Assembly: GCF_024502345.1 (NCBI RefSeq) | Contig: NZ_JALDNN010000001.1 | Source of the DNA: Escherichia coli | GTDB taxonomy: Bacteria; Pseudomonadota; Gammaproteobacteria; Enterobacterales; Enterobacteriaceae | Strand: one strand, 5' to 3' | Length of the DNA stretch: 64,000 nucleotides | Part shown: piece after piece, positions 1,568-56,530 of the stretch | Layout: every line of letters starts with the position of its first letter | Numbering within the stretch: position 1 is the first letter of the stretch | The notes under the pieces: model-generated | What the model saw: the letters and a program-made list of their open reading frames with translations, nothing else | What the model was told of the DNA's origin: nothing | Databases searched by the model: none | Made by a program: the position numbers and the translations under genes

Positions 1568-4408
1568 ATGAAGCCGCTCTCTTCACCGTTACAGCAGTAC
1601 TGGCAGACCGTTGTTGAGCGGCTGCCAGAGCCTTTAGCCGAGGAATCACTTAGCGCGCAGGCGAAGTCAGTACTTACTTTCAGTGACTTTGTGCAGGACA
1701 GCGTGATTGCGCATCCAGAGTGGCTGACGGAACTGGAAAGCCAACCGCCGCAGGCCGACGAATGGCAGCATTACGTTGCATGGTTGCAGGAGGCGCTCAG
1801 TAATGTGAGTGACGAAGCCGGGTTAATGCGCGAGCTGCGGCTGTTCCGGCGGCGCATTATGGTACGTATCGCCTGGGCGCAAACGCTGGCACTGGTTACT
1901 GAAGAGAGCATATTGCAGCAGCTCAGCTATCTGGCGGAGACACTGATTGTTGCGGCGCGTGACTGGCTATATGACGCCTGCTGCCGCGAGTGGGGAACGC
2001 CGTGCAATGCGCAGGGCGAAGCGCAACCGCTGCTGATTTTAGGCATGGGTAAGCTGGGCGGCGGGGAACTGAATTTCTCCTCAGATATCGATCTGATTTT
2101 TGCCTGGCCGGAACATGGTTGTACGCAGGGTGGACGCCGGGAACTGGATAATGCGCAGTTTTTTACCCGCATGGGGCAGCGGCTGATTAAAGTGCTGGAT
2201 CAACCAACGCAGGATGGCTTTGTCTATCGCGTGGATATGCGACTGCGTCCGTTTGGCGAAAGTGGCCCGCTGGTGCTGAGCTTTGCCGCGTTGGAAGATT
2301 ATTACCAGGAGCAGGGGCGCGACTGGGAGCGTTACGCGATGGTCAAGGCGCGGATTATGGGCGATAGCGAAGGCGTCTATGCTAACGAGTTGCGTGCGAT
2401 GCTGCGCCCGTTTGTTTTCCGTCGTTACATCGATTTCAGCGTGATTCAGTCGCTGCGCAACATGAAAGGGATGATTGCCCGTGAAGTGCGTCGACGTGGT
2501 TTGACCGACAATATCAAACTCGGCGCAGGCGGCATTCGCGAAATTGAATTTATCGTTCAGGTGTTCCAGCTCATTCGCGGTGGGCGCGAACCGTCGCTGC
2601 AGTCGCGCTCTTTACTGCCAACGCTCAGCGTCATTGCCGCGCTGCATCTGCTTTCTGAAAACGATGCTGAACAATTGCGAGTGGCGTATCTGTTCCTGCG
2701 GCGTCTGGAAAACCTGCTGCAAAGCATTAACGACGAACAAACCCAGACGCTTCCTTCTGATGAGCTTAACCGTGCGCGGCTGGCGTGGGCGATGGACTTT
2801 GCTGACTGGCCGCAACTGACCGGGGCGCTGACCGCACATATGACCAATGTGCGCCGGGTGTTTAATGAATTGATTGGCGACGACGAAAGTGAAACTCAGG
2901 AAGAGTCGCTGTCGGAACAGTGGCGTGAGCTGTGGCAGGATGCGTTGCAGGAAGATGACACTACGCCAGTGCTGGCGCATCTTAGCGAGGACGATCGCAA
3001 ACAGGTACTAACGCTGATTGCCGATTTCCGCAAAGAGCTGGATAAGCGCACCATCGGGCCGCGAGGACGTCAGGTGCTCGACCATCTGATGCCGCATCTG
3101 CTAAGTGATGTCTGTGCGCGTGAAGACGCTGCCGTTACGCTGTCGCGCATTACCGCCTTGCTGGTGGGGATTGTTACCCGCACCACCTATTTAGAATTGC
3201 TCAGTGAATTCCCCGCGGCGCTTAAACATTTGATTTCTCTGTGTGCCGCGTCGCCGATGATTGCCAGCCAGCTGGCGCGTTATCCATTATTGCTGGATGA
3301 ATTGCTCGATCCAAACACCCTTTACCAGCCGACGGCGACCGATGCCTACCGCGATGAGTTGCGCCAGTATTTGCTGCGCGTGCCGGAAGATGACGAAGAG
3401 CAACAGCTTGAGGCGCTGCGTCAGTTCAAACAGGCGCAGCTGTTACGCATCGCCGCAGCGGATATCGCCGGTACGCTACCGGTGATGAAAGTGAGCGATC
3501 ACTTAACCTGGCTGGCGGAAGCCATGATAGATGCCGTCGTTCAGCAGGCGTGGGTTCAAATGGTTGCCCGCTACGGTAAGCCGAATCACCTGAACGAACG
3601 CGAAGGGCGTGGTTTTGCAGTGGTCGGCTACGGCAAGCTGGGCGGCTGGGAGTTAGGCTACAGTTCCGATCTTGACCTGATCTTCCTCCATGATTGCCCA
3701 ATGGATGCGATGACTGACGGCGAGCGGGAAATCGACGGGCGGCAGTTTTATCTGCGTCTGGCGCAACGCATTATGCATCTGTTCAGTACGCGTACCTCTT
3801 CCGGCATTTTGTATGAAGTGGATGCTCGACTGCGTCCGTCCGGGGCGGCGGGAATGCTGGTGACATCCGCAGAAGCATTTGCCGATTATCAGAAAAACGA
3901 GGCCTGGACGTGGGAACATCAGGCGCTGGTGCGTGCGCGTGTAGTGTACGGCGATCCGCAGCTCACCGCGCACTTTGACGCGGTGCGTCGTGAGATTATG
4001 GCGCTGCCGCGCGAAGGCAAAACCCTGCAAACAGAAGTGCGGGAAATGCGCGAGAAAATGCGCGCTCATCTCGGCAATAAACATCGCGATCGCTTTGATA
4101 TCAAAGCCGATGAAGGCGGAATTACCGATATCGAATTTATTACCCAATATCTGGTGTTGCGCTACGCTCATGAAAAACCGAAGTTAACGCGCTGGTCAGA
4201 CAACGTGCGCATTCTGGAACTGCTGGCACAAAACGACATTATGGAAGAGCAGGAAGCGATGGCGCTGACCCGTGCTTACACGACGCTTCGCGATGAACTT
4301 CATCATCTGGCATTACAGGAATTGCCGGGCCATGTGTCGGAGGATTGCTTCACCGCAGAGCGTGAACTGGTGCGGGCAAGCTGGCAGAAGTGGCTGGTGG
4401 AAGAATGA
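1568..4408 (+). CDS. glnE: Glutamine synthetase adenylyltransferase/adenylyl-removing enzyme, 946 aa
   Basis: ORF track gives 1364..4408; trimmed to internal ATG at 1568 ([12 protein letters not shown]...), which gives the expected 946 aa; two nucleotidyltransferase motifs (GKLGGxELxxxSDxD) visible. Confidence 0.93.
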
Positions 4409-4455: not shown

Positions 4456-5889
4456 ATGAAAGTAACGCTGCCAGAGTTTGAACGTGCAGGAGTGATGGTG
4501 GTTGGTGATGTGATGCTGGATCGTTACTGGTACGGCCCCACCAGTCGTATCTCGCCGGAAGCGCCGGTGCCCGTGGTTAAAGTGAATACCATCGAAGAAC
4601 GTCCGGGCGGCGCGGCTAACGTGGCGATGAATATCGCTTCTCTCGGTGCTAATGCACGCCTGGTCGGGTTGACGGGCATTGACGATGCAGCGCGCGCGCT
4701 GAGTAAATCTCTGGCCGACGTCAACGTCAAATGCGACTTCGTTTCTGTACCGACGCATCCTACCATTACCAAATTACGGGTACTTTCCCGCAACCAACAG
4801 CTGATCCGTCTGGATTTTGAAGAAGGTTTCGAAGGTGTTGATCCGCAGCCGCTGCACGAGCGGATTAATCAGGCGCTGAGTTCGATTGGCGCGCTGGTGC
4901 TTTCTGACTACGCCAAAGGTGCGCTGGCAAGCGTACAGCAGATGATCCAACTGGCGCGTAAAGCGGGCGTTCCGGTGCTGATTGATCCAAAAGGTACCGA
5001 TTTTGAGCGCTACCGCGGCGCTACGCTGTTAACGCCGAATCTCTCGGAATTTGAAGCTGTTGTCGGTAAATGTAAGACCGAAGAAGAGATTGTTGAGCGC
5101 GGCATGAAACTGATTGCCGATTACGAACTCTCGGCTCTGTTAGTGACCCGTTCCGAACAGGGTATGTCGCTGCTGCAACCGGGTAAAGCGCCGCTGCATA
5201 TGCCAACCCAGGCGCAGGAAGTGTATGACGTTACCGGTGCGGGCGACACGGTGATTGGCGTCCTGGCGGCAACGCTGGCAGCGGGTAATTCGCTGGAAGA
5301 AGCCTGCTTCTTTGCCAATGCGGCGGCTGGTGTGGTGGTCGGCAAACTGGGGACGTCCACGGTTTCGCCGATCGAGCTGGAAAACGCTGTACGTGGACGC
5401 GCAGATACCGGCTTTGGCGTGATGACCGAAGAGGAACTGAAGCTGGCCGTAGCGGCAGCGCGTAAACGTGGTGAAAAAGTGGTAATGACCAACGGTGTCT
5501 TCGATATCCTACATGCCGGGCACGTCTCTTATCTGGCAAATGCCCGCAAGCTGGGTGACCGCTTGATTGTTGCCGTCAACAGCGATGCCTCCACCAAACG
5601 GCTGAAAGGGGATTCCCGCCCGGTAAACCCACTCGAACAGCGTATGATTGTGCTGGGCGCACTGGAAGCGGTCGACTGGGTAGTGTCGTTTGAAGAAGAT
5701 ACGCCGCAGCGCCTGATCGCCGGGATCCTGCCAGATCTGCTGGTGAAAGGTGGCGACTATAAACCAGAAGAGATTGCCGGGAGTAAAGAAGTCTGGGCCA
5801 ACGGCGGCGAAGTGCTGGTGCTCAACTTCGAAGACGGTTGCTCGACCACTAACATTATCAAGAAGATCCAACAGGATAAAAAAGGCTAA
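4456..5889 (+). CDS. hldE: Bifunctional D-beta-D-heptose 7-phosphate kinase / heptose 1-phosphate adenylyltransferase, 477 aa
   Basis: 477-aa ORF with SD AGGAGA upstream; recognised RfaE/HldE sequence; conserved position after glnE. Confidence 0.93.
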
Positions 5890-5969
5890 CCGGAAAGCGG
5901 GTCACAGATCTCGCTTCGTACCTAGCAGGCCTATTGACGCTGTTGCTTTTTCAACCTAGAGTAAAGGAA

Positions 5970-6112
5970 CAAGGGTAAGGGAGGATTTCTCCCCCCTCTG
6001 ATGAGTTGTTAGTAAGTCGGGAAACTTAACAGTAACAACACAACCAGTATGATGACGAGCTTCATCATAACCCTTTCCTTCTATAAGGCCCCTTCCTCGG
6101 GAGGGGCTTTCC
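5970..6112 (+). ncRNA. sibD: Sib-family antisense sRNA antitoxin (SibD/E-like), copy 1; ends approximate
   Basis: Putative promoter TTGACG-17bp-TAGAGT at 5934-5962; fully overlaps the antisense ibs ORF; 3' hairpin GCCCCUU...GAGGGGC + UUUCCCGUUUC at 6088-6118; ~143 nt fits known Sib length; D/E naming tentative. Confidence 0.6.
6009..6068 (-). CDS. ibsD: Ibs-family type I toxin, 19-aa hydrophobic peptide MMKLVIILVVLLLLSFPTY
   Basis: 60-nt minus-strand ORF translated by hand; close match to the Ibs toxin family (cf. IbsC MMRLVIILIVLLLISFSAY); D/E naming tentative. Confidence 0.65.
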   Translation of the reverse strand: MMKLVIILVVLLLLSFPTY

Positions 6113-6345
6113 CGTTTCAGCCCCTTGCTGACTCCCCGATTGTTGATGAGCGCCGGACCCCGCGCAACGCTTTCCCTGAAGCAGTTTTGCCTTCCCCGAG
6201 CGGTCACGCAAAACGCTGCAACGTCCTGAGCATTTGCACCTTTTAGCGGAACGCAGATATAAAAAATCCCCGGCTTTTTGGGCCAGGGATATGTGTTAAT
6301 GAAACCTTCTTGACGCTGATTTTTTTTCAACCTAAAGTAAAGGAA

Positions 6346-6488
6346 CAAGGGTAAGGGAGGATTTCTCCCCCCTCTGATTGGCTGTTAATAAGCTGCGAAA
6401 CTTACGAGTAACAACACAATCAGTATGATGACGAGCTTCATCATAACCCTTTCCTTATACAAGGCCCCTTCTTCGGGAGGGGCTTTCC
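6346..6488 (+). ncRNA. sibE: Sib-family antisense sRNA antitoxin (SibD/E-like), copy 2; ends approximate
   Basis: Promoter TTGACG-17bp-TAAAGT at 6310-6338; overlaps second ibs ORF; same 3' hairpin as copy 1. Confidence 0.6.
6385..6444 (-). CDS. ibsE: Ibs-family type I toxin, 19-aa peptide MMKLVIILIVLLLVSFAAY
   Basis: 60-nt minus-strand ORF in second repeat unit; differs from copy 1 at 4 residues. Confidence 0.65.
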   Translation of the reverse strand: MMKLVIILIVLLLVSFAAY

Positions 6489-6633
6489 CGTTTCAGCCCC
6501 TTGCTGACTCCCCGATTGTTGATGAGCGCCGGACCCCGCGCAACGCTTTCCCTGAGGTAGTTTTGCCTTCCCCGAGCGGTCACGCAAAATGCTGCAACAG
6601 CCCGATCATTTGCACTTTTTATCGGAACGCAGA

Positions 6634-6666
6634 TATAAAAAATCCCCGGCTTTTTGGGCCAGGGAT
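6634..6666 (-). terminator. Rho-independent terminator downstream of yqiK (minus strand); a homologous copy lies at 6258-6290
   Basis: Minus-strand RNA AUCCCUGGC-CCAAAAA-GCCGGGGAU followed by UUUUUUAU; 9-bp stem with one G-U pair. Confidence 0.6.
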
Positions 6667-6682
6667 GTTCATAGCTGAAAAT

Positions 6683-8344
6683 TTATTCTACGTTTTCGGC
6701 GACGGGAGTTGTTGAGGTTAAGGGTGAAGTCAATGCAGCCAGTGAGCCGCCTGAAACGCCAATTTCATTGAGCAAGGAGTCAATCAGTGGTGCCTGTGTG
6801 CGGTAAGAGAGTGCGGCTGATAATGCTTGTTCCGCCAGGTTTCCGCCCCCCACATTACCCGTGTTTGCATCCCCCGCAGTACCACCACGATTCAGACCAT
6901 CGACCTGAATAATCTTGATACCGTCAATGGACTTCATTGGTTCCACGGATTTCTCTATTACCGCAGGTAGCGCCTGCAACAAGGCCAGTTTGAATTTAAG
7001 GCTGGTTTGTTCGTCAGAAAGTACGTTGATAGCATCGTTCAGCGCACGTTGTGCTTCTGCTTCCGCCAGGCCTTTTTTACGCGTAGCTTCGGCTAACTCA
7101 ACGATCGCCGCCGCCTGCATCTCTGCGGCTTCTTTTTCCGCTTTCGCCCGCACGGTCAGTTCAACCGCTTTGGTTTCTGCATCCTGTGCTGCGGCAATCA
7201 GCGCCACCTGCTTGGCACGATCGGCTTCGGCTGTCTGGCGAGTGGTTTCTACGTTTTGTTGGGCGCTTACTGCTTCTGCGAGTGCAAGGTTAGCACGCGC
7301 TTCTGCCTGGGACTGTTGTTCCGATTTGGCGGCAATAGCGATCGATTTCGTCTGGTTAGCGATTTCGGTGACCTGCTGCTGTTCGATCTCTTTAATGCGA
7401 ACTTCACGTTCAGCTTCAACTTTTCTTGAGCGGACGGCCTGTTCGCGGTCGATTTCTGTTTCCTGAATCTGTCGTTCAGCCAGAATTCGCGTCTGCTCTG
7501 CTTCACGACGACGTTCAGCTTCAAAAGCAGCAATTTTCGCATTTTGTTCAGCGGTACGGGTTTTAACTTGCTGCTCCTGCTCAAGCGTCATAAACGCTTC
7601 TTGTTGTTCAATCTCCAACTTGCGCGAAAGTGCATCACGGTTTTTCTCACGCACCGCAACTTCTACATCCTGTTCAACTTCGTTACGCTCGCGGCGACGG
7701 CGCTCCGTCTCCTGAGTCAGTTTGGTTAAACCTTCGGCGTCAAAGGCATTGTTCGGATTGAAATGTTCTTTCGAGGTCTGGTTAAAGTTGGTAAGTGAAA
7801 CGCTTTCCAGTTCCAGGCCGTTTTTCGACAGATCTTCAGCTACGGTATTTTGTACTCCCTGCACGAAGTTCTCGCGGGTATCCTGTAACTCATGCATGGT
7901 CATTTGCGCAGCTGTTGCACGGAGGGCATCGACAAATTTATCTTCAACCAACATACGTAAGTCTTCAGGCGACAGGGTGCGTTGCCCCAGCGTCTGGGCA
8001 GCGGTGGCAATCCCTTCTACTGAAGGTTTTACCCGCACAAAGAAAGCGACTACTACATCGACGCGCATACGATCTTTCGTAATCAGGCTATCAATGGTTG
8101 AGCGGCTGACTTCCAGCTTCAGAGTATTCATATTGATGGGGATTATTTCATGAAAGATCGGCATCACGATTGCGCCACCGCTCATTACCACTTTTTGCCC
8201 CCCTAAGCCGGTACGGACAAATGCTTGCTCTGCCGAAGCTCGACGATAGAGCCTGGCGAAAATAATTCCAATAATAAACAGAATGCATACGGCAATAATC
8301 GCGGTAAACATCCAGGAGGGCACAGAATTAACAATATCATCCAT
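6683..8344 (-). CDS. yqiK: Band-7 / flotillin-like (SPFH domain) inner membrane protein, 553 aa
   Basis: 553-aa ORF with N-terminal TM segment and long Ala/Glu/Gln-rich coiled-coil region; conserved position. Confidence 0.88.
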   Translation of the reverse strand: MDDIVNSVPSWMFTAIIAVCILFIIGIIFARLYRRASAEQAFVRTGLGGQKVVMSGGAIVMPIFHEIIPINMNTLKLEVSRSTIDSLITKDRMRVDVVVAFFVRVKPSVEGIATAAQTLGQRTLSPEDLRMLVEDKFVDALRATAAQMTMHELQDTRENFVQGVQNTVAEDLSKNGLELESVSLTNFNQTSKEHFNPNNAFDAEGLTKLTQETERRRRERNEVEQDVEVAVREKNRDALSRKLEIEQQEAFMTLEQEQQVKTRTAEQNAKIAAFEAERRREAEQTRILAERQIQETEIDREQAVRSRKVEAEREVRIKEIEQQQVTEIANQTKSIAIAAKSEQQSQAEARANLALAEAVSAQQNVETTRQTAEADRAKQVALIAAAQDAETKAVELTVRAKAEKEAAEMQAAAIVELAEATRKKGLAEAEAQRALNDAINVLSDEQTSLKFKLALLQALPAVIEKSVEPMKSIDGIKIIQVDGLNRGGTAGDANTGNVGGGNLAEQALSAALSYRTQAPLIDSLLNEIGVSGGSLAALTSPLTSTTPVAENVE

Positions 8345-9803: not shown

Positions 9804-9925
9804 TGTAGTTTCCCTGTACTGATAGGTGTTGAGTGCCATTGTAGTGCGATAAGGGTAAGTCATAAACCAGAATTATGTGAAGCTATGCGTTGCTGCCGCT
9901 AATCATTAGCGTTATAGTGAATCCG

Positions 9926-10176
9926 CTTATTCTCAGGGCGGGGCGAAATTCCCCACCGGCGGTAAATCAACTCAGTTGAAAGCCCGCGAGCGCTTTGGGT
10001 GCGAACTCAAAGGACAGCAGATCCGGTGTAATTCCGGGGCCGACGGTTAGAGTCCGGATGGGAGAGAGTAACGATTCTGTCGGGCATGGACCCGCTCACG
10101 TTATTTTGGCTATATGCCGCCACTCCTAAGACTGCCCTGATTCTGGTAACCATAATTTTAGTGAGGTTTTTTTACC
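9926..10176 (+). promoter_or_regulatory. FMN riboswitch (RFN element) in the ribB 5' leader
   Basis: Conserved RFN core CAGGGCGGGGCGAAAUUCCCCACCGGCGGUAAA ... AUCCGGUGUAAUUCCGGGGCCGACGGUUAGAGUCCGGAUGGGAGAGAGUAACG; putative -10 TATAGT at 9913-9918. Confidence 0.88.
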
Positions 10177-39499: not shown

Positions 39500-39603
39500 A
39501 CGTTCCTCCTTTATATGAACTCACCGGAGCAGGCTCCGGTGAGGTGTTGTGAACTTAAGTCTGGACGAAATGCCCGAAAACGAAAGTTTGAGGCGTAAAA
39601 AGC

Positions 39604-45313: not shown

Positions 45314-45525
45314 GCCTGATGCGCTACGCTCATCAGGCCTACAAAATCTATTGCAACATGTTGAATCTTCGTGCGTTTGTAGGCCGGATAAGGCGTTCAC
45401 GACGCATCCGGCATTAGGTGCTCAATGCCTGATGCGCTACGCTTATCAGGCCTACAAAATCTATTGCAACATGTTGAATCTTCATGCGTTTGTAGGCGGA
45501 TAAGGCGTTTTCGCCACATCAGGTA
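45314..45525. repeat. BIME: two tandem ~113-bp units each containing a pair of inverted REP elements
   Basis: GCCTGATGCGCTACGCTTATCAGGCCTACA and TGTAGGCCGGATAAGGCG...CATCCGGCA motifs, duplicated at 45314 and 45427. Confidence 0.85.
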
Positions 45526-56414: not shown

Positions 56415-56530
56415 AGCTTTCGTAGGCCTGATAAGACGCGGCAGCGTCGCATCAGGCATTGTGCTCGATTGCCGGATGCGGCGTGAACGCCTTATCCGGC
56501 CTGGATGGCTTGCTGCGACGAACGCTAACC
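56415..56530. repeat. REP elements between hybG and yghU
   Basis: GTAGGCCTGATAAGACGCG...CGCATCAGGC and TGCCGGATGCGGCGTGAACGCCTTATCCGGCCT. Confidence 0.8.

What the first reader, a model, noticed from the sequence alone, without database searches (positions are those of the whole stretch)
5934..6685. Tandem duplicated Sib/Ibs type I toxin-antitoxin modules between hldE and yqiK
Two ~376-bp direct repeats each contain a 19-aa hydrophobic peptide ORF on the minus strand (MMKLVIILVVLLLLSFPTY and MMKLVIILIVLLLVSFAAY), matching the Ibs toxin family. Each has a fully overlapping plus-strand transcription unit with a sigma70-like promoter (TTGACG-17-TAGAGT/TAAAGT) and a 3' hairpin with U-tract, consistent with ~143-nt Sib antisense antitoxin RNAs. 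This matches the known sibD-sibE arrangement at this locus. The six-frame ORF track shows only spurious 65-130 aa ORFs here and misses the real 19-aa genes.
Basis: partly seen in the sequence, partly recalled or inferred. Interest (0 to 1): 0.55.

Follow-up and report, generated by a model that had tools for sequence, protein, structure and literature searches.

The report
Known sibE/ibsE and sibD/ibsD toxin-antitoxin pair
The two repeats are the well-known E. coli SibE/IbsE and SibD/IbsD modules, in which a small antisense RNA keeps a 19-residue membrane toxin from being made.

Summary
Window 5934-6290 and 6310-6666 form a 357-nt direct repeat with a period of 376 nt, 92.7% identity and no indels.

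- **Sib RNA:** each copy scores far above the Rfam SIB_RNA threshold (140.4 and 150.8 bits; gathering score 56).
- **Ibs peptide:** each copy carries a 19-codon minus-strand ORF. The peptides are 100% identical to E. coli K-12 IbsE (hldE side) and IbsD (yqiK side).
- **Transcript ends:** the K-12 annotated ends project to sibE 5969-6112 and sibD 6345-6488.
- **Distribution:** the locus lies in the same hldE-yqiK gap in 5425 of 5426 complete E. coli genomes, and RefSeq annotates the ibs genes there.
- **Mechanism (published, not tested here):** constitutive Sib RNA pairs with its own ibs mRNA through two recognition domains, TRD1 and TRD2, and causes its repression and degradation. The 13 differences between the two Sib copies fall in or beside those domains.

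Corrections are minor. The copy order from hldE is E then D, the terminator U-tract is short and interrupted, and the repeat also duplicates the ibs promoter zone and a copy of the yqiK terminator.

One side observation: the TRD2 segment reassorts between copies across strains, and about a fifth of genomes carry a single module.

Novelty: already known. Interest: low.

The parts
4456..5889 (+). hldE (left flank, 477 aa)
   Evidence: ORF. It aligns to the annotated hldE of K-12 and FDAARGOS_943, which ends exactly where the intergenic match begins.
5934..6290 (.). Repeat unit 1 (sibE/ibsE module). It holds the sib promoter, the Sib/ibs overlap, the ibs promoter zone and a terminator copy.
   Evidence: 357 nt, 92.7% identical to unit 2, no indels.
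5934..5962 (+). sibE sigma-70-type promoter, TTGACG-17-TAGAGT
   Evidence: 9 of 12 matches. It corresponds to Rfam SIB_RNA model positions 1-29. The homologous 35-bp sibD minimal promoter is shown functional in PMC12956327.
5969..6112 (+). SibE antitoxin RNA (144 nt, +1 = A)
   Evidence: K-12 sibE ends projected through alignment A1. 97.9% identical to K-12 SibE. The fold shows a P1 stem, the start-codon hairpin, a single-stranded TRD2 zone and a terminator, z = -3.6.
6009..6068 (-). ibsE, 19-aa toxin MMKLVIILVVLLLLSFPTY plus stop
   Evidence: 100% identical to K-12 IbsE. RefSeq annotates it as 'toxin IbsE' at the same place in FDAARGOS_943.
6071..6080 (-). ibsE Shine-Dalgarno region, AAGGAAAGGG, ending 2 nt before the first ATG
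   Evidence: Read directly from the sequence. It lies in the zone targeted by TRD2 according to PMC2943612.
6085..6110 (+). SibE terminator hairpin (11 bp, loop CUCG), followed by a UUUCCCGUUU context
   Evidence: The K-12 annotated 3' end projects to 6112.
5971..6132 (-). Predicted ibsE mRNA (~162 nt), by register with the mapped ibsD transcript
   Evidence: Inference. It is the position 376 nt from the ibsD transcript ends taken from the Han et al. primers, and the sequence GTCAGCAAGGGGCTG is conserved in both copies.
6139..6167 (-). Candidate ibsE promoter, TTGCGC-17-AACAAT (8 of 12 matches)
   Evidence: My reading of the sequence, 7 nt upstream of the inferred start. It falls below the scan threshold. 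Han et al. report 'conserved promoter elements' at this position for ibsD.
6266..6290 (-). Intrinsic terminator hairpin with a U-run, a duplicated copy of the yqiK terminator, lying between ibsD and the ibsE promoter
   Evidence: 9-bp stem with 6 G-C pairs, tail TTTTTATATC, identical to the copy at 6642-6666.
6310..6666 (.). Repeat unit 2 (sibD/ibsD module)
6310..6338 (+). sibD sigma-70-type promoter, TTGACG-17-TAAAGT
   Evidence: Identical to K-12 over this stretch. The 35-bp minimal promoter is characterised in PMC12956327.
6345..6488 (+). SibD antitoxin RNA (144 nt, +1 = A)
   Evidence: K-12 sibD ends projected. 96.6% identical to K-12 SibD. Fold z = -4.5.
6385..6444 (-). ibsD, 19-aa toxin MMKLVIILIVLLLVSFAAY plus stop
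   Evidence: 100% identical to K-12 IbsD.
6447..6456 (-). ibsD Shine-Dalgarno region, AAGGAAAGGG
   Evidence: Sequence, in register with copy 1.
6461..6486 (+). SibD terminator hairpin
6347..6508 (-). ibsD mRNA as defined in K-12 (+1 G at 6508; 163 nt in K-12, 162 nt here)
   Evidence: The primers ERI-T7-ibsD and ibsD+163 and the primer-extension statement in PMC2943612, mapped onto the window. Fold z = -4.9, with the AUGAUGA start buried in a hairpin.
6515..6543 (-). Candidate ibsD promoter, TTGCGC-17-AACAAT
   Evidence: My reading of the sequence relative to the mapped start site. Inference.
6642..6666 (-). yqiK intrinsic terminator, 17 nt after the yqiK stop. It is the right end of repeat unit 2.
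   Evidence: The yqiK ORF ends at 6683.
6683..8344 (-). yqiK (right flank, flotillin family, 553 aa)
   Evidence: Annotated at the same position in FDAARGOS_943 and K-12.

Best explanation
The region holds two tandem type I toxin-antitoxin modules. sibE/ibsE lies next to hldE and sibD/ibsD lies next to yqiK. They are orthologous to the modules of the same names in E. coli K-12.

In each module the minus strand gives a ~160-nt ibs mRNA that encodes a 19-residue hydrophobic inner-membrane peptide. Overproduction of that peptide depolarises the membrane and stops growth. The plus strand gives, from a strong sigma-70 promoter, a ~144-nt Sib RNA that is fully complementary to the ibs ribosome-binding site and ORF.

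Sib makes first contact through two accessible segments. TRD1 is a loop antisense to the 3' half of the ORF. TRD2 is the single-stranded stretch antisense to the ribosome-binding site. Pairing then spreads, and the ibs mRNA is repressed and degraded.

The two copies differ mainly in these two segments, so each Sib is expected to silence only its own ibs. The start codon of the ibs mRNA is also buried in a hairpin, which adds a second brake.

Shown here: the anatomy, family membership, orthology and the clustering of differences. Inferred from published K-12 work: transcription, toxicity, repression and specificity.
For: - Rfam SIB_RNA hits at 140.4 and 150.8 bits (gathering score 56), full length, plus strand. 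The antisense-strand scores are below threshold at 28.7 and 39.8 bits.
- The peptides are identical to K-12 IbsE and IbsD.
- Mean column identity to the K-12 interval is 97%, with the same neighbours.
- The locus is found in 5425 of 5426 complete E. coli genomes, and RefSeq annotates the ibs genes in the records listed.
- Each sib has a promoter, and +1 is A in both.
- The Sib folds show a P1 stem, a start-codon hairpin, an unpaired TRD2 zone and a terminator, with z = -3.6 and -4.5.
- The ibs mRNA fold sequesters the AUGAUGA start, z = -4.9.
- Of the 13 differences between the two Sib copies, 10 lie in 6003-6044, which holds the TRD1 zone. Two lie in the TRD2 zone (6081, 6084) and one in the terminator loop. 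None fall in 5969-6002 or 6045-6080.
- Published mechanism: PMC2943612 describes TRD1/TRD2, cognate-only repression, the ibsD start site and a specificity swap between SibC and SibD.
- PMC9426594 describes SibE as the antitoxin of the membrane-depolarising IbsE.
- PMC12956327 characterises the sibD and sibE promoters and the +1A start.
Against: Nothing in the sequence speaks against it.

Caveats:
- No transcript or toxicity data exist for this particular strain.
- NCBIfam holds no profile that recognises the peptides, so peptide membership rests on identity to named K-12 proteins.
- K-12 labels IbsD only a 'putative toxic peptide'.
- The two copies share a 36-nt identical run across the ribosome-binding site and start codon. 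Strict cognate specificity therefore depends on RNA structure and pairing kinetics, not on lack of complementarity.
Confidence: 0.97

Rival explanations
1. Only one of the two modules is functional. The other is a decaying duplicate whose toxin is never made or whose Sib is not needed.
For: About one fifth of E. coli genomes manage with a single module at this locus. K-12 labels IbsD only as 'putative'.
Against: Both copies keep an intact promoter, +1A, ORF, Shine-Dalgarno region, start-codon hairpin and terminator. Both peptides are identical to K-12 despite 7 nucleotide differences between the two ORFs. Han et al. use ibsD expression as a repression read-out.
Confidence: 0.03
2. The long ORFs over the repeat (130 aa minus strand; 65 and 96 aa plus strand) are the real genes, and the mini-ORFs are incidental.
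For: They exist in the six-frame listing.
Against: They are not annotated in any of the ten RefSeq records of this locus that were inspected. The plus-strand ORFs start inside the Sib RNA and run through its terminator. Their lengths differ between the copies (65 vs 96 aa) because the stop is not conserved. The 130-aa ORF spans the junction of the two units, so it cannot exist in single-module strains.
Confidence: 0.01
3. The repeat is a passive intergenic duplication, the old 'QUAD repeat' reading, with no regulatory role.
For: The duplication carries along non-module sequence such as a copy of the yqiK terminator.
Against: There is covariance-model membership, conserved peptides, promoters and near-universal retention in E. 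coli. There is also direct experimental literature on these exact genes.
Confidence: 0.01

Closest known systems
E. coli K-12 sibE/ibsE (b4611/b4666) and sibD/ibsD (b4447/b4664)
   Same: Same intergenic gap (hldE-yqiK), same order and strands, and the same 376-nt period. The peptides are 100% identical. The Sib RNAs are 97.9% and 96.6% identical. The promoters and +1A are the same.
   Different: The TRD2/ribosome-binding-site segment is exchanged relative to K-12. The window's SibD carries K-12 SibE's CUUAUACAAGG. The window's SibE carries CUUCUAUAAGG, one base from K-12 SibD's CUUCUGUAAGG. There are scattered substitutions upstream of ibs, a 1-nt indel in the sibD terminator stem, and a different yqiK 3' end.
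E. coli K-12 sibA/ibsA, sibB/ibsB (yegL-mdtA gap) and sibC/ibsC (fau-serA gap)
   Same: Same family and architecture, with 70-76% Sib identity. The peptides are of the same type, MMK/R...SF..Y.
   Different: Homology covers only about 5933-6130 of the unit. The ibs promoter zone and the terminator copy are specific to the D/E duplication. The sibA/B period is 335 nt. SibA and SibB start with G.
Ldr/Rdl (LDR repeats) and chromosomal Hok/Sok of E. coli
   Same: They are type I toxin-antitoxin modules with small hydrophobic toxins and cis-antisense RNA antitoxins. They are often tandemly duplicated in one intergenic region.
   Different: The sequences are unrelated and the toxins are longer (35 aa and about 50 aa, from memory for Hok). 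The antisense RNA overlaps only part of the mRNA, whereas Sib spans the whole ribosome-binding site and ORF.
Salmonella Typhimurium IbsA/SibA
   Same: A 19-aa Ibs toxin with a Sib antisense RNA.
   Different: It lies in a different locus and has a different sequence. Its proposed molecular target is the a and b subunits of the Fo sector of ATP synthase (bioRxiv 10.1101/2025.05.26.656083). Whether IbsD or IbsE share that target is unknown.

Membership tests
Sib RNA (Rfam RF00113, SIB_RNA) | Scores above the family's gathering threshold with the covariance model, full length, on the expected strand | tested here: met
   140.4 and 150.8 bits against a gathering score of 56, model positions 1-147 of 147, plus strand. 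The minus-strand scores are below threshold.
Sib RNA (Rfam RF00113, SIB_RNA) | Encoded antisense to, and fully spanning, an ibs ribosome-binding site and ORF | tested here: met
   Sib 5969-6112 covers ibsE 6009-6068 and its SD 6071-6080. Sib 6345-6488 covers ibsD 6385-6444 and its SD 6447-6456.
Sib RNA (Rfam RF00113, SIB_RNA) | Own promoter and intrinsic terminator giving a ~140-nt RNA | tested here: met
   Promoter matches, a terminator hairpin in the fold, and K-12 annotated ends that project to 144 nt for each copy. These are predictions from sequence. Actual transcripts were not observed.
Sib RNA (Rfam RF00113, SIB_RNA) | Expressed as an abundant stable small RNA | not testable with these tools
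   Shown for K-12 SibD and SibE in PMC12956327 and PMC9426594. No data exist for this strain.
Ibs toxin family | An 18-19-residue hydrophobic peptide of the form MMK/R-hydrophobic core-SF..Y | tested here: met
   MMKLVIILVVLLLLSFPTY and MMKLVIILIVLLLVSFAAY are identical to K-12 IbsE and IbsD and align with IbsA, IbsB and IbsC.
Ibs toxin family | Recognised by a curated protein profile | tested here: inconclusive
   NCBIfam returned only a sub-threshold unrelated hit (12 bits against a cut-off of 90). The peptides are too short for the Pfam tool. RefSeq nevertheless names them 'Ibs family toxin'.
Ibs toxin family | Toxic when expressed without the antitoxin, by membrane depolarisation | not testable with these tools
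   Literature only: PMC2943612 citing Fozo 2008, and PMC9426594.
Type I toxin-antitoxin system | An RNA antitoxin base-pairs with the toxin mRNA and represses it | not testable with these tools
   Complementarity is complete by construction because both are read from the same DNA. Repression is shown in K-12 for SibC/ibsC and SibD/ibsD.
Type I toxin-antitoxin system | Paralogous copies differ in the recognition domains (TRD1, TRD2) that give cognate specificity | tested here: met
   Twelve of the 13 differences between the Sib copies lie in 6003-6044, which holds the TRD1 zone, or in the TRD2 zone (6081, 6084). The conserved stems carry none. This agrees with PMC2943612.
sibD/sibE locus of E. 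coli (orthology) | Same flanking genes, order and orientation | tested here: met
   hldE - E module - D module - yqiK, as in K-12 and in nine other genomes, one of which has a single module.

The most novel reading that the evidence does not exclude
The two recognition domains of the tandem Sib antitoxins evolve as separable cassettes. Across E. coli strains the TRD2/ribosome-binding-site segment has three alleles. These have been shuffled between the E and D copies by gene conversion or unequal recombination.

As a result the window's copies carry TRD2 alleles exchanged relative to K-12. Some strains have identical or nearly identical TRD2 in both copies (CFSAN061768 identical; str119, 2D and IAL7254 differ by one base). 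In those strains the two antitoxins would cross-repress through TRD2, and specificity would rest on TRD1 alone.

The recombination signal itself is solid: all four combinations of the four-gamete test are seen. Whether it has functional consequences, and whether it has already been reported, is unknown. The probability below refers to the functional consequence, not to the recombination signal.
Probability: 0.3. Interest if true: 0.25.

Novelty: already known. Interest (0 to 1): 0.07.

Why it matters
It matters little beyond correct annotation. These 19-codon genes and their antisense RNAs are routinely missed by ORF callers, so recognising them prevents false calls of the 65-130-aa ORFs that lie over them. 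The modules are textbook examples of chromosomal type I toxin-antitoxin systems, and more recently of NAD-capped sRNAs. The only mildly new angle is population-level. Copy number (one or two modules) and the pairing of TRD1 with TRD2 alleles vary among E. coli strains. That variation offers natural material for testing how antisense specificity is kept between near-identical tandem paralogues.

Tried and rejected
- **NCBIfam scan of the peptides.** They were extended by 4-6 upstream codons to reach the 20-aa minimum. No Ibs model was hit, only a 12-bit chance match to RC1041_fam. Membership therefore rests on identity to the K-12 proteins.
- **Pfam.** Not possible, because the tool needs at least 30 aa.
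- **First translations.** Searches used the wrong frame. They were redone with the correct coordinates.
- **Batch folding of the ibs mRNAs.** The ibsD mRNA was then folded on its own.
- **Fozo et al. 2008 (PMC2597788).** This is the primary description, but it is not held in the library. It is cited only through Han et al. 2010 and from memory.
- **Relaxed Rfam search of 5850-6750.** It looked for a second RNA family in the ~180 nt between the Sib terminator and the next unit. Only chance-level hits came back (mir-7, GadY, NsiR1; E = 0.2-0.65), plus sub-threshold antisense SIB hits.
- **Search for further copies.** Neither additional copies of the unit nor other Ibs-like mini-ORFs were found elsewhere in the 64 kb.
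- **Long ORFs as genes.** Considered and rejected (see the rival explanations).
- **Terminator scan.** It does not flag the Sib terminators because their U-tract is interrupted. The hairpin is supported by the fold and by the K-12 3' ends instead.
Full report
**1. What is in the sequence**

The interval between a 477-aa ORF ending at 5889 (plus strand) and a 553-aa ORF ending at 6683 (minus strand) contains one long direct repeat.

- The repeat finder reports 5934-6233 against 6310-6609 at 92% identity with a spacing of 376 nt.
- A gapped alignment shows the homology runs from 5934 to 6290 and from 6310 to 6666. That is 357 nt with 26 substitutions and no indels. Similarity is lost in the ~19 nt before each unit and after 6290 and 6666.
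- blastn of the unit against the whole window gives E = 3e-152 for the second copy and finds no third copy.

**2. The RNA genes**

A scan of the whole window against Rfam at gathering thresholds gives two full-length SIB_RNA (RF00113) hits on the plus strand. They lie at 5934-6083 (140.4 bits) and 6310-6459 (150.8 bits), against a gathering score of 56. The opposite strand scores only 28.7 and 39.8 bits.

The Rfam model begins at the -35 hexamer and ends before the terminator. The hit coordinates are therefore offset from the transcript.

The annotated K-12 MG1655 ends are sibD b4447 and sibE b4611. Projected through the pairwise alignment, which has 97% mean column identity, they place SibE at 5969-6112 and SibD at 6345-6488. 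Each is 144 nt and each starts with A. This is 7 nt downstream of the -10 hexamers of TTGACG-17-TAGAGT (5934-5962) and TTGACG-17-TAAAGT (6310-6338). The promoter scan finds both, with 3 sites found in the region against 0.5 expected.

Folding each RNA gives the following elements, with z-scores of -3.6 and -4.5:

- a closing stem between the 5' AAGGGU and the downstream ACCCUU;
- two internal hairpins;
- the AUGAUGA...UCAUCAU hairpin;
- an unpaired stretch UCCUU(C/A)UA(U/C)AAGG;
- an 11-bp G+C-rich terminator hairpin at 6085-6110 and 6461-6486.

This is the architecture that Han et al. (PMC2943612) describe as P1, P5, P6, J1/7 and P7. The tail after the terminator is UUUCCCGUUU, so the 'U-tract' is short and interrupted. 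The simple terminator scan does not flag it.

**3. The peptide genes**

On the minus strand, 6068->6009 translates to MMKLVIILVVLLLLSFPTY* and 6444->6385 to MMKLVIILIVLLLVSFAAY*. These are identical to K-12 IbsE and IbsD respectively.

- Each ORF is preceded by AAGGAAAGGG, which ends 2 nt before the first ATG.
- They are the only hydrophobic ATGATG-initiated mini-ORFs of this size in the window.
- K-12 has the order yqiK - sibD/ibsD - sibE/ibsE - hldE. The hldE-proximal copy in the window is therefore the E module and the yqiK-proximal copy is the D module. RefSeq annotation of the closest genome agrees (FDAARGOS_943, 99.4% identity).
- NCBIfam has no profile that recognises these peptides. 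Membership rests on sequence identity and on the alignment with IbsA, IbsB and IbsC.

**4. The ibs transcripts**

Han et al. mapped the ibsD 5' end by primer extension and synthesised a 163-nt ibsD mRNA. Their primers (ERI-T7-ibsD, ibsD+163) place +1 at the G of GTCAGCA... and the 3' end at the complement of Sib position +3.

In the window this corresponds to 6508->6347, which is 162 nt because of a 1-nt indel. By register, ibsE would run 6132->5971.

Upstream of both I read TTGCGC-17-AACAAT (6543->6515 and 6167->6139). That is 8 of 12 matches, below the scan threshold, so it is an inference.

The predicted ibsD mRNA fold buries the AUGAUGA start in a hairpin with codons 5-7. It also pairs part of the Shine-Dalgarno region with the 3' end (z = -4.9). 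This suggests intrinsically poor translation in addition to antisense control.

**5. What else the repeat unit carries**

A minus-strand intrinsic terminator sits 17 nt after the yqiK stop, at 6666->6642. It has a 9-bp stem and the tail UUUUUAUAUC. An identical copy lies at 6290->6266, between ibsD and the ibsE promoter zone.

The tandem duplication therefore spanned from the sib -35 hexamer to the yqiK terminator. The internal copy would insulate ibsE from read-through out of ibsD. That last point is an inference.

Homology to the other K-12 loci (sibA/B and sibC) covers only about 5933-6130. The ibs promoter zone and the terminator copy are thus specific to the D/E duplication, which is younger than the split from sibA, sibB and sibC. 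Sib identities are 70-76% to A, B and C, against 91% between the two window copies.

**6. Mechanism**

The mechanism comes from the literature on these exact genes:

- Sib RNAs are constitutively made, ~140-nt antitoxin RNAs that span the whole ribosome-binding site and ORF of ibs.
- Ibs overproduction damages the envelope and membrane potential.
- Repression leads to ibs mRNA degradation and is cognate-specific except for ibsA.
- Recognition starts at TRD1, a loop antisense to the ORF, or at TRD2, the single-stranded J1/7 stretch antisense to the ribosome-binding site. Both lie in the most variable parts of the family.
- Swapping either domain of SibC for that of SibD redirects it to ibsD.

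The window fits this picture. Of the 13 differences between its two Sib genes:

- 10 lie in 6003-6044, which holds the TRD1 zone (7 of them inside the ORF, giving 4 amino-acid changes);
- 2 lie in the TRD2 zone (6081, 6084);
- 1 lies in the terminator loop;
- none lie in 5969-6002 or 6045-6080.

The two copies still share a 36-nt identical run across the start codon and Shine-Dalgarno region. Discrimination must therefore be kinetic and structural, as Han et al. argue.

More recent work adds two points. SibD, SibE and SibC transcripts are heavily NAD-capped. This depends on +1A and the 35-bp minimal promoter and is enhanced by ppGpp and DksA. The window keeps +1A in both copies, and the sibD promoter is identical to K-12.

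The target of the toxin is not settled. A preprint reports that Salmonella IbsA inhibits the Fo sector of ATP synthase.

**7. Distribution**

The 801-nt interval is found in 5425 of 5426 complete E. coli genomes. In 5416 of them a single place covers at least 80% of it, and nearly all matches are chromosomal.

The window's exact alleles are common. The 101-nt core of copy 1 is at least 99% identical in 1411 genomes, and that of copy 2 in 283. Nothing about this instance is unusual.

**8. Side observations**

- *TRD2 reassortment.* In ten strains the TRD2 zone has three alleles: CTTCTATAAGG, CTTATACAAGG and CTTCTGTAAGG. They combine with either the E-type or the D-type TRD1 zone, and all four combinations needed for a four-gamete test are present. 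This shows recombination or conversion between the copies.
- *Exchange relative to K-12.* The window's D copy carries K-12 SibE's TRD2, and its E copy carries a near-SibD TRD2. One strain (CFSAN061768) has the same TRD2 in both copies.
- *Copy number.* Some genomes have a single module (L005). About 6 of 30 evenly spaced rows show this, and only 4423 of 5426 genomes have a D-type core. That suggests roughly one fifth.
- *Other variants.* These include a third Ibs type (…SFQAY) in A3176 and an IS481-family transposase inserted about 5 bp upstream of the sibE -35 in IAL7254.

**9. Verdict**

The finding is a correct recognition of an already known, well-studied pair of type I toxin-antitoxin modules. 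Interest is low.

Noticed in passing
window 6080-6085 and 6456-6461; loci L001, L002, L005-L011: The TRD2/ribosome-binding-site segment has three alleles (CTTCTATAAGG, CTTATACAAGG, CTTCTGTAAGG). They occur with either TRD1 type in different E. coli strains, and the four-gamete test is violated. The window's two copies carry TRD2 alleles exchanged relative to K-12. CFSAN061768 (L010) has the same TRD2 in both copies.
   Followed up: partly
L005 (Z0117EC0055) 1542-1908; rows H24-H29: Copy-number polymorphism. Some E. coli genomes have a single sib/ibs module between hldE and yqiK. The spread listing, and the 4423 of 5426 genomes with a D-type core, suggest roughly one fifth.
   Followed up: partly
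L006 (A3176) 2544-3290: This strain has a D-type module at the hldE side. At the yqiK side it has a third type, with the peptide MMKLVIILIVLLLVSFQAY and a 1-nt insertion in the TRD1 zone.
   Followed up: no
L011 (IAL7254) 1463-2509: An IS481-family transposase gene lies between hldE and the sibE promoter. The match to the window resumes at query position 40, which is window 5929, about 5 bp upstream of the -35 hexamer.
   Followed up: no
L012 (EC0900) 2132-2848: In this genome the best match to the query is only a 73-nt stretch at the yegL-mdtA locus, which carries three ibs genes (ibsA plus two 18-aa types). The hldE-yqiK modules appear to be absent or very divergent.
   Followed up: no
window 6266-6290 and 6642-6666 (minus strand): The yqiK intrinsic terminator is part of the repeat unit. 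An identical second copy therefore sits between ibsD and the ibsE promoter zone, where it could block read-through from ibsD into ibsE.
   Followed up: partly
window 6026-6053 (plus strand): A promoter-like site, TTAACA-16-TATGAT (10 of 12 matches), lies inside sibE and is absent from the sibD copy (TTACGA). If active, it would give a short RNA holding only TRD2 and the terminator. It is probably a chance match.
   Followed up: no
window 6667-6690 vs K-12 (alignment A1 columns 779-804): The 3' end of yqiK and the few bases after it differ sharply from K-12, although the rest of the interval is 97% identical. The query splits E. coli genomes into a group matching all 801 nt and a K-12-like group matching only 1-777.
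   Followed up: no
window 5934-6083 and 6310-6459: The Rfam SIB_RNA model starts at the promoter -35 hexamer and stops before the terminator. Its hit coordinates start 35 nt upstream of the real transcript start and stop 29 nt short of its 3' end.
   Followed up: yes
window 9925-10073 (plus strand): An FMN riboswitch (RF00050, 120.9 bits).
   Followed up: no
window 39538-39601 (minus strand): An ES173 sRNA hit (RF02753, 99 bits; gathering score 90).
   Followed up: no
window 56425-56501 (both strands) and 45382-45452 (plus strand): naRNA4 / CssrE hits (RF02564; 90.5, 60.4 and 61 bits). A hit on both strands at one site suggests a palindromic repeat element.
   Followed up: no
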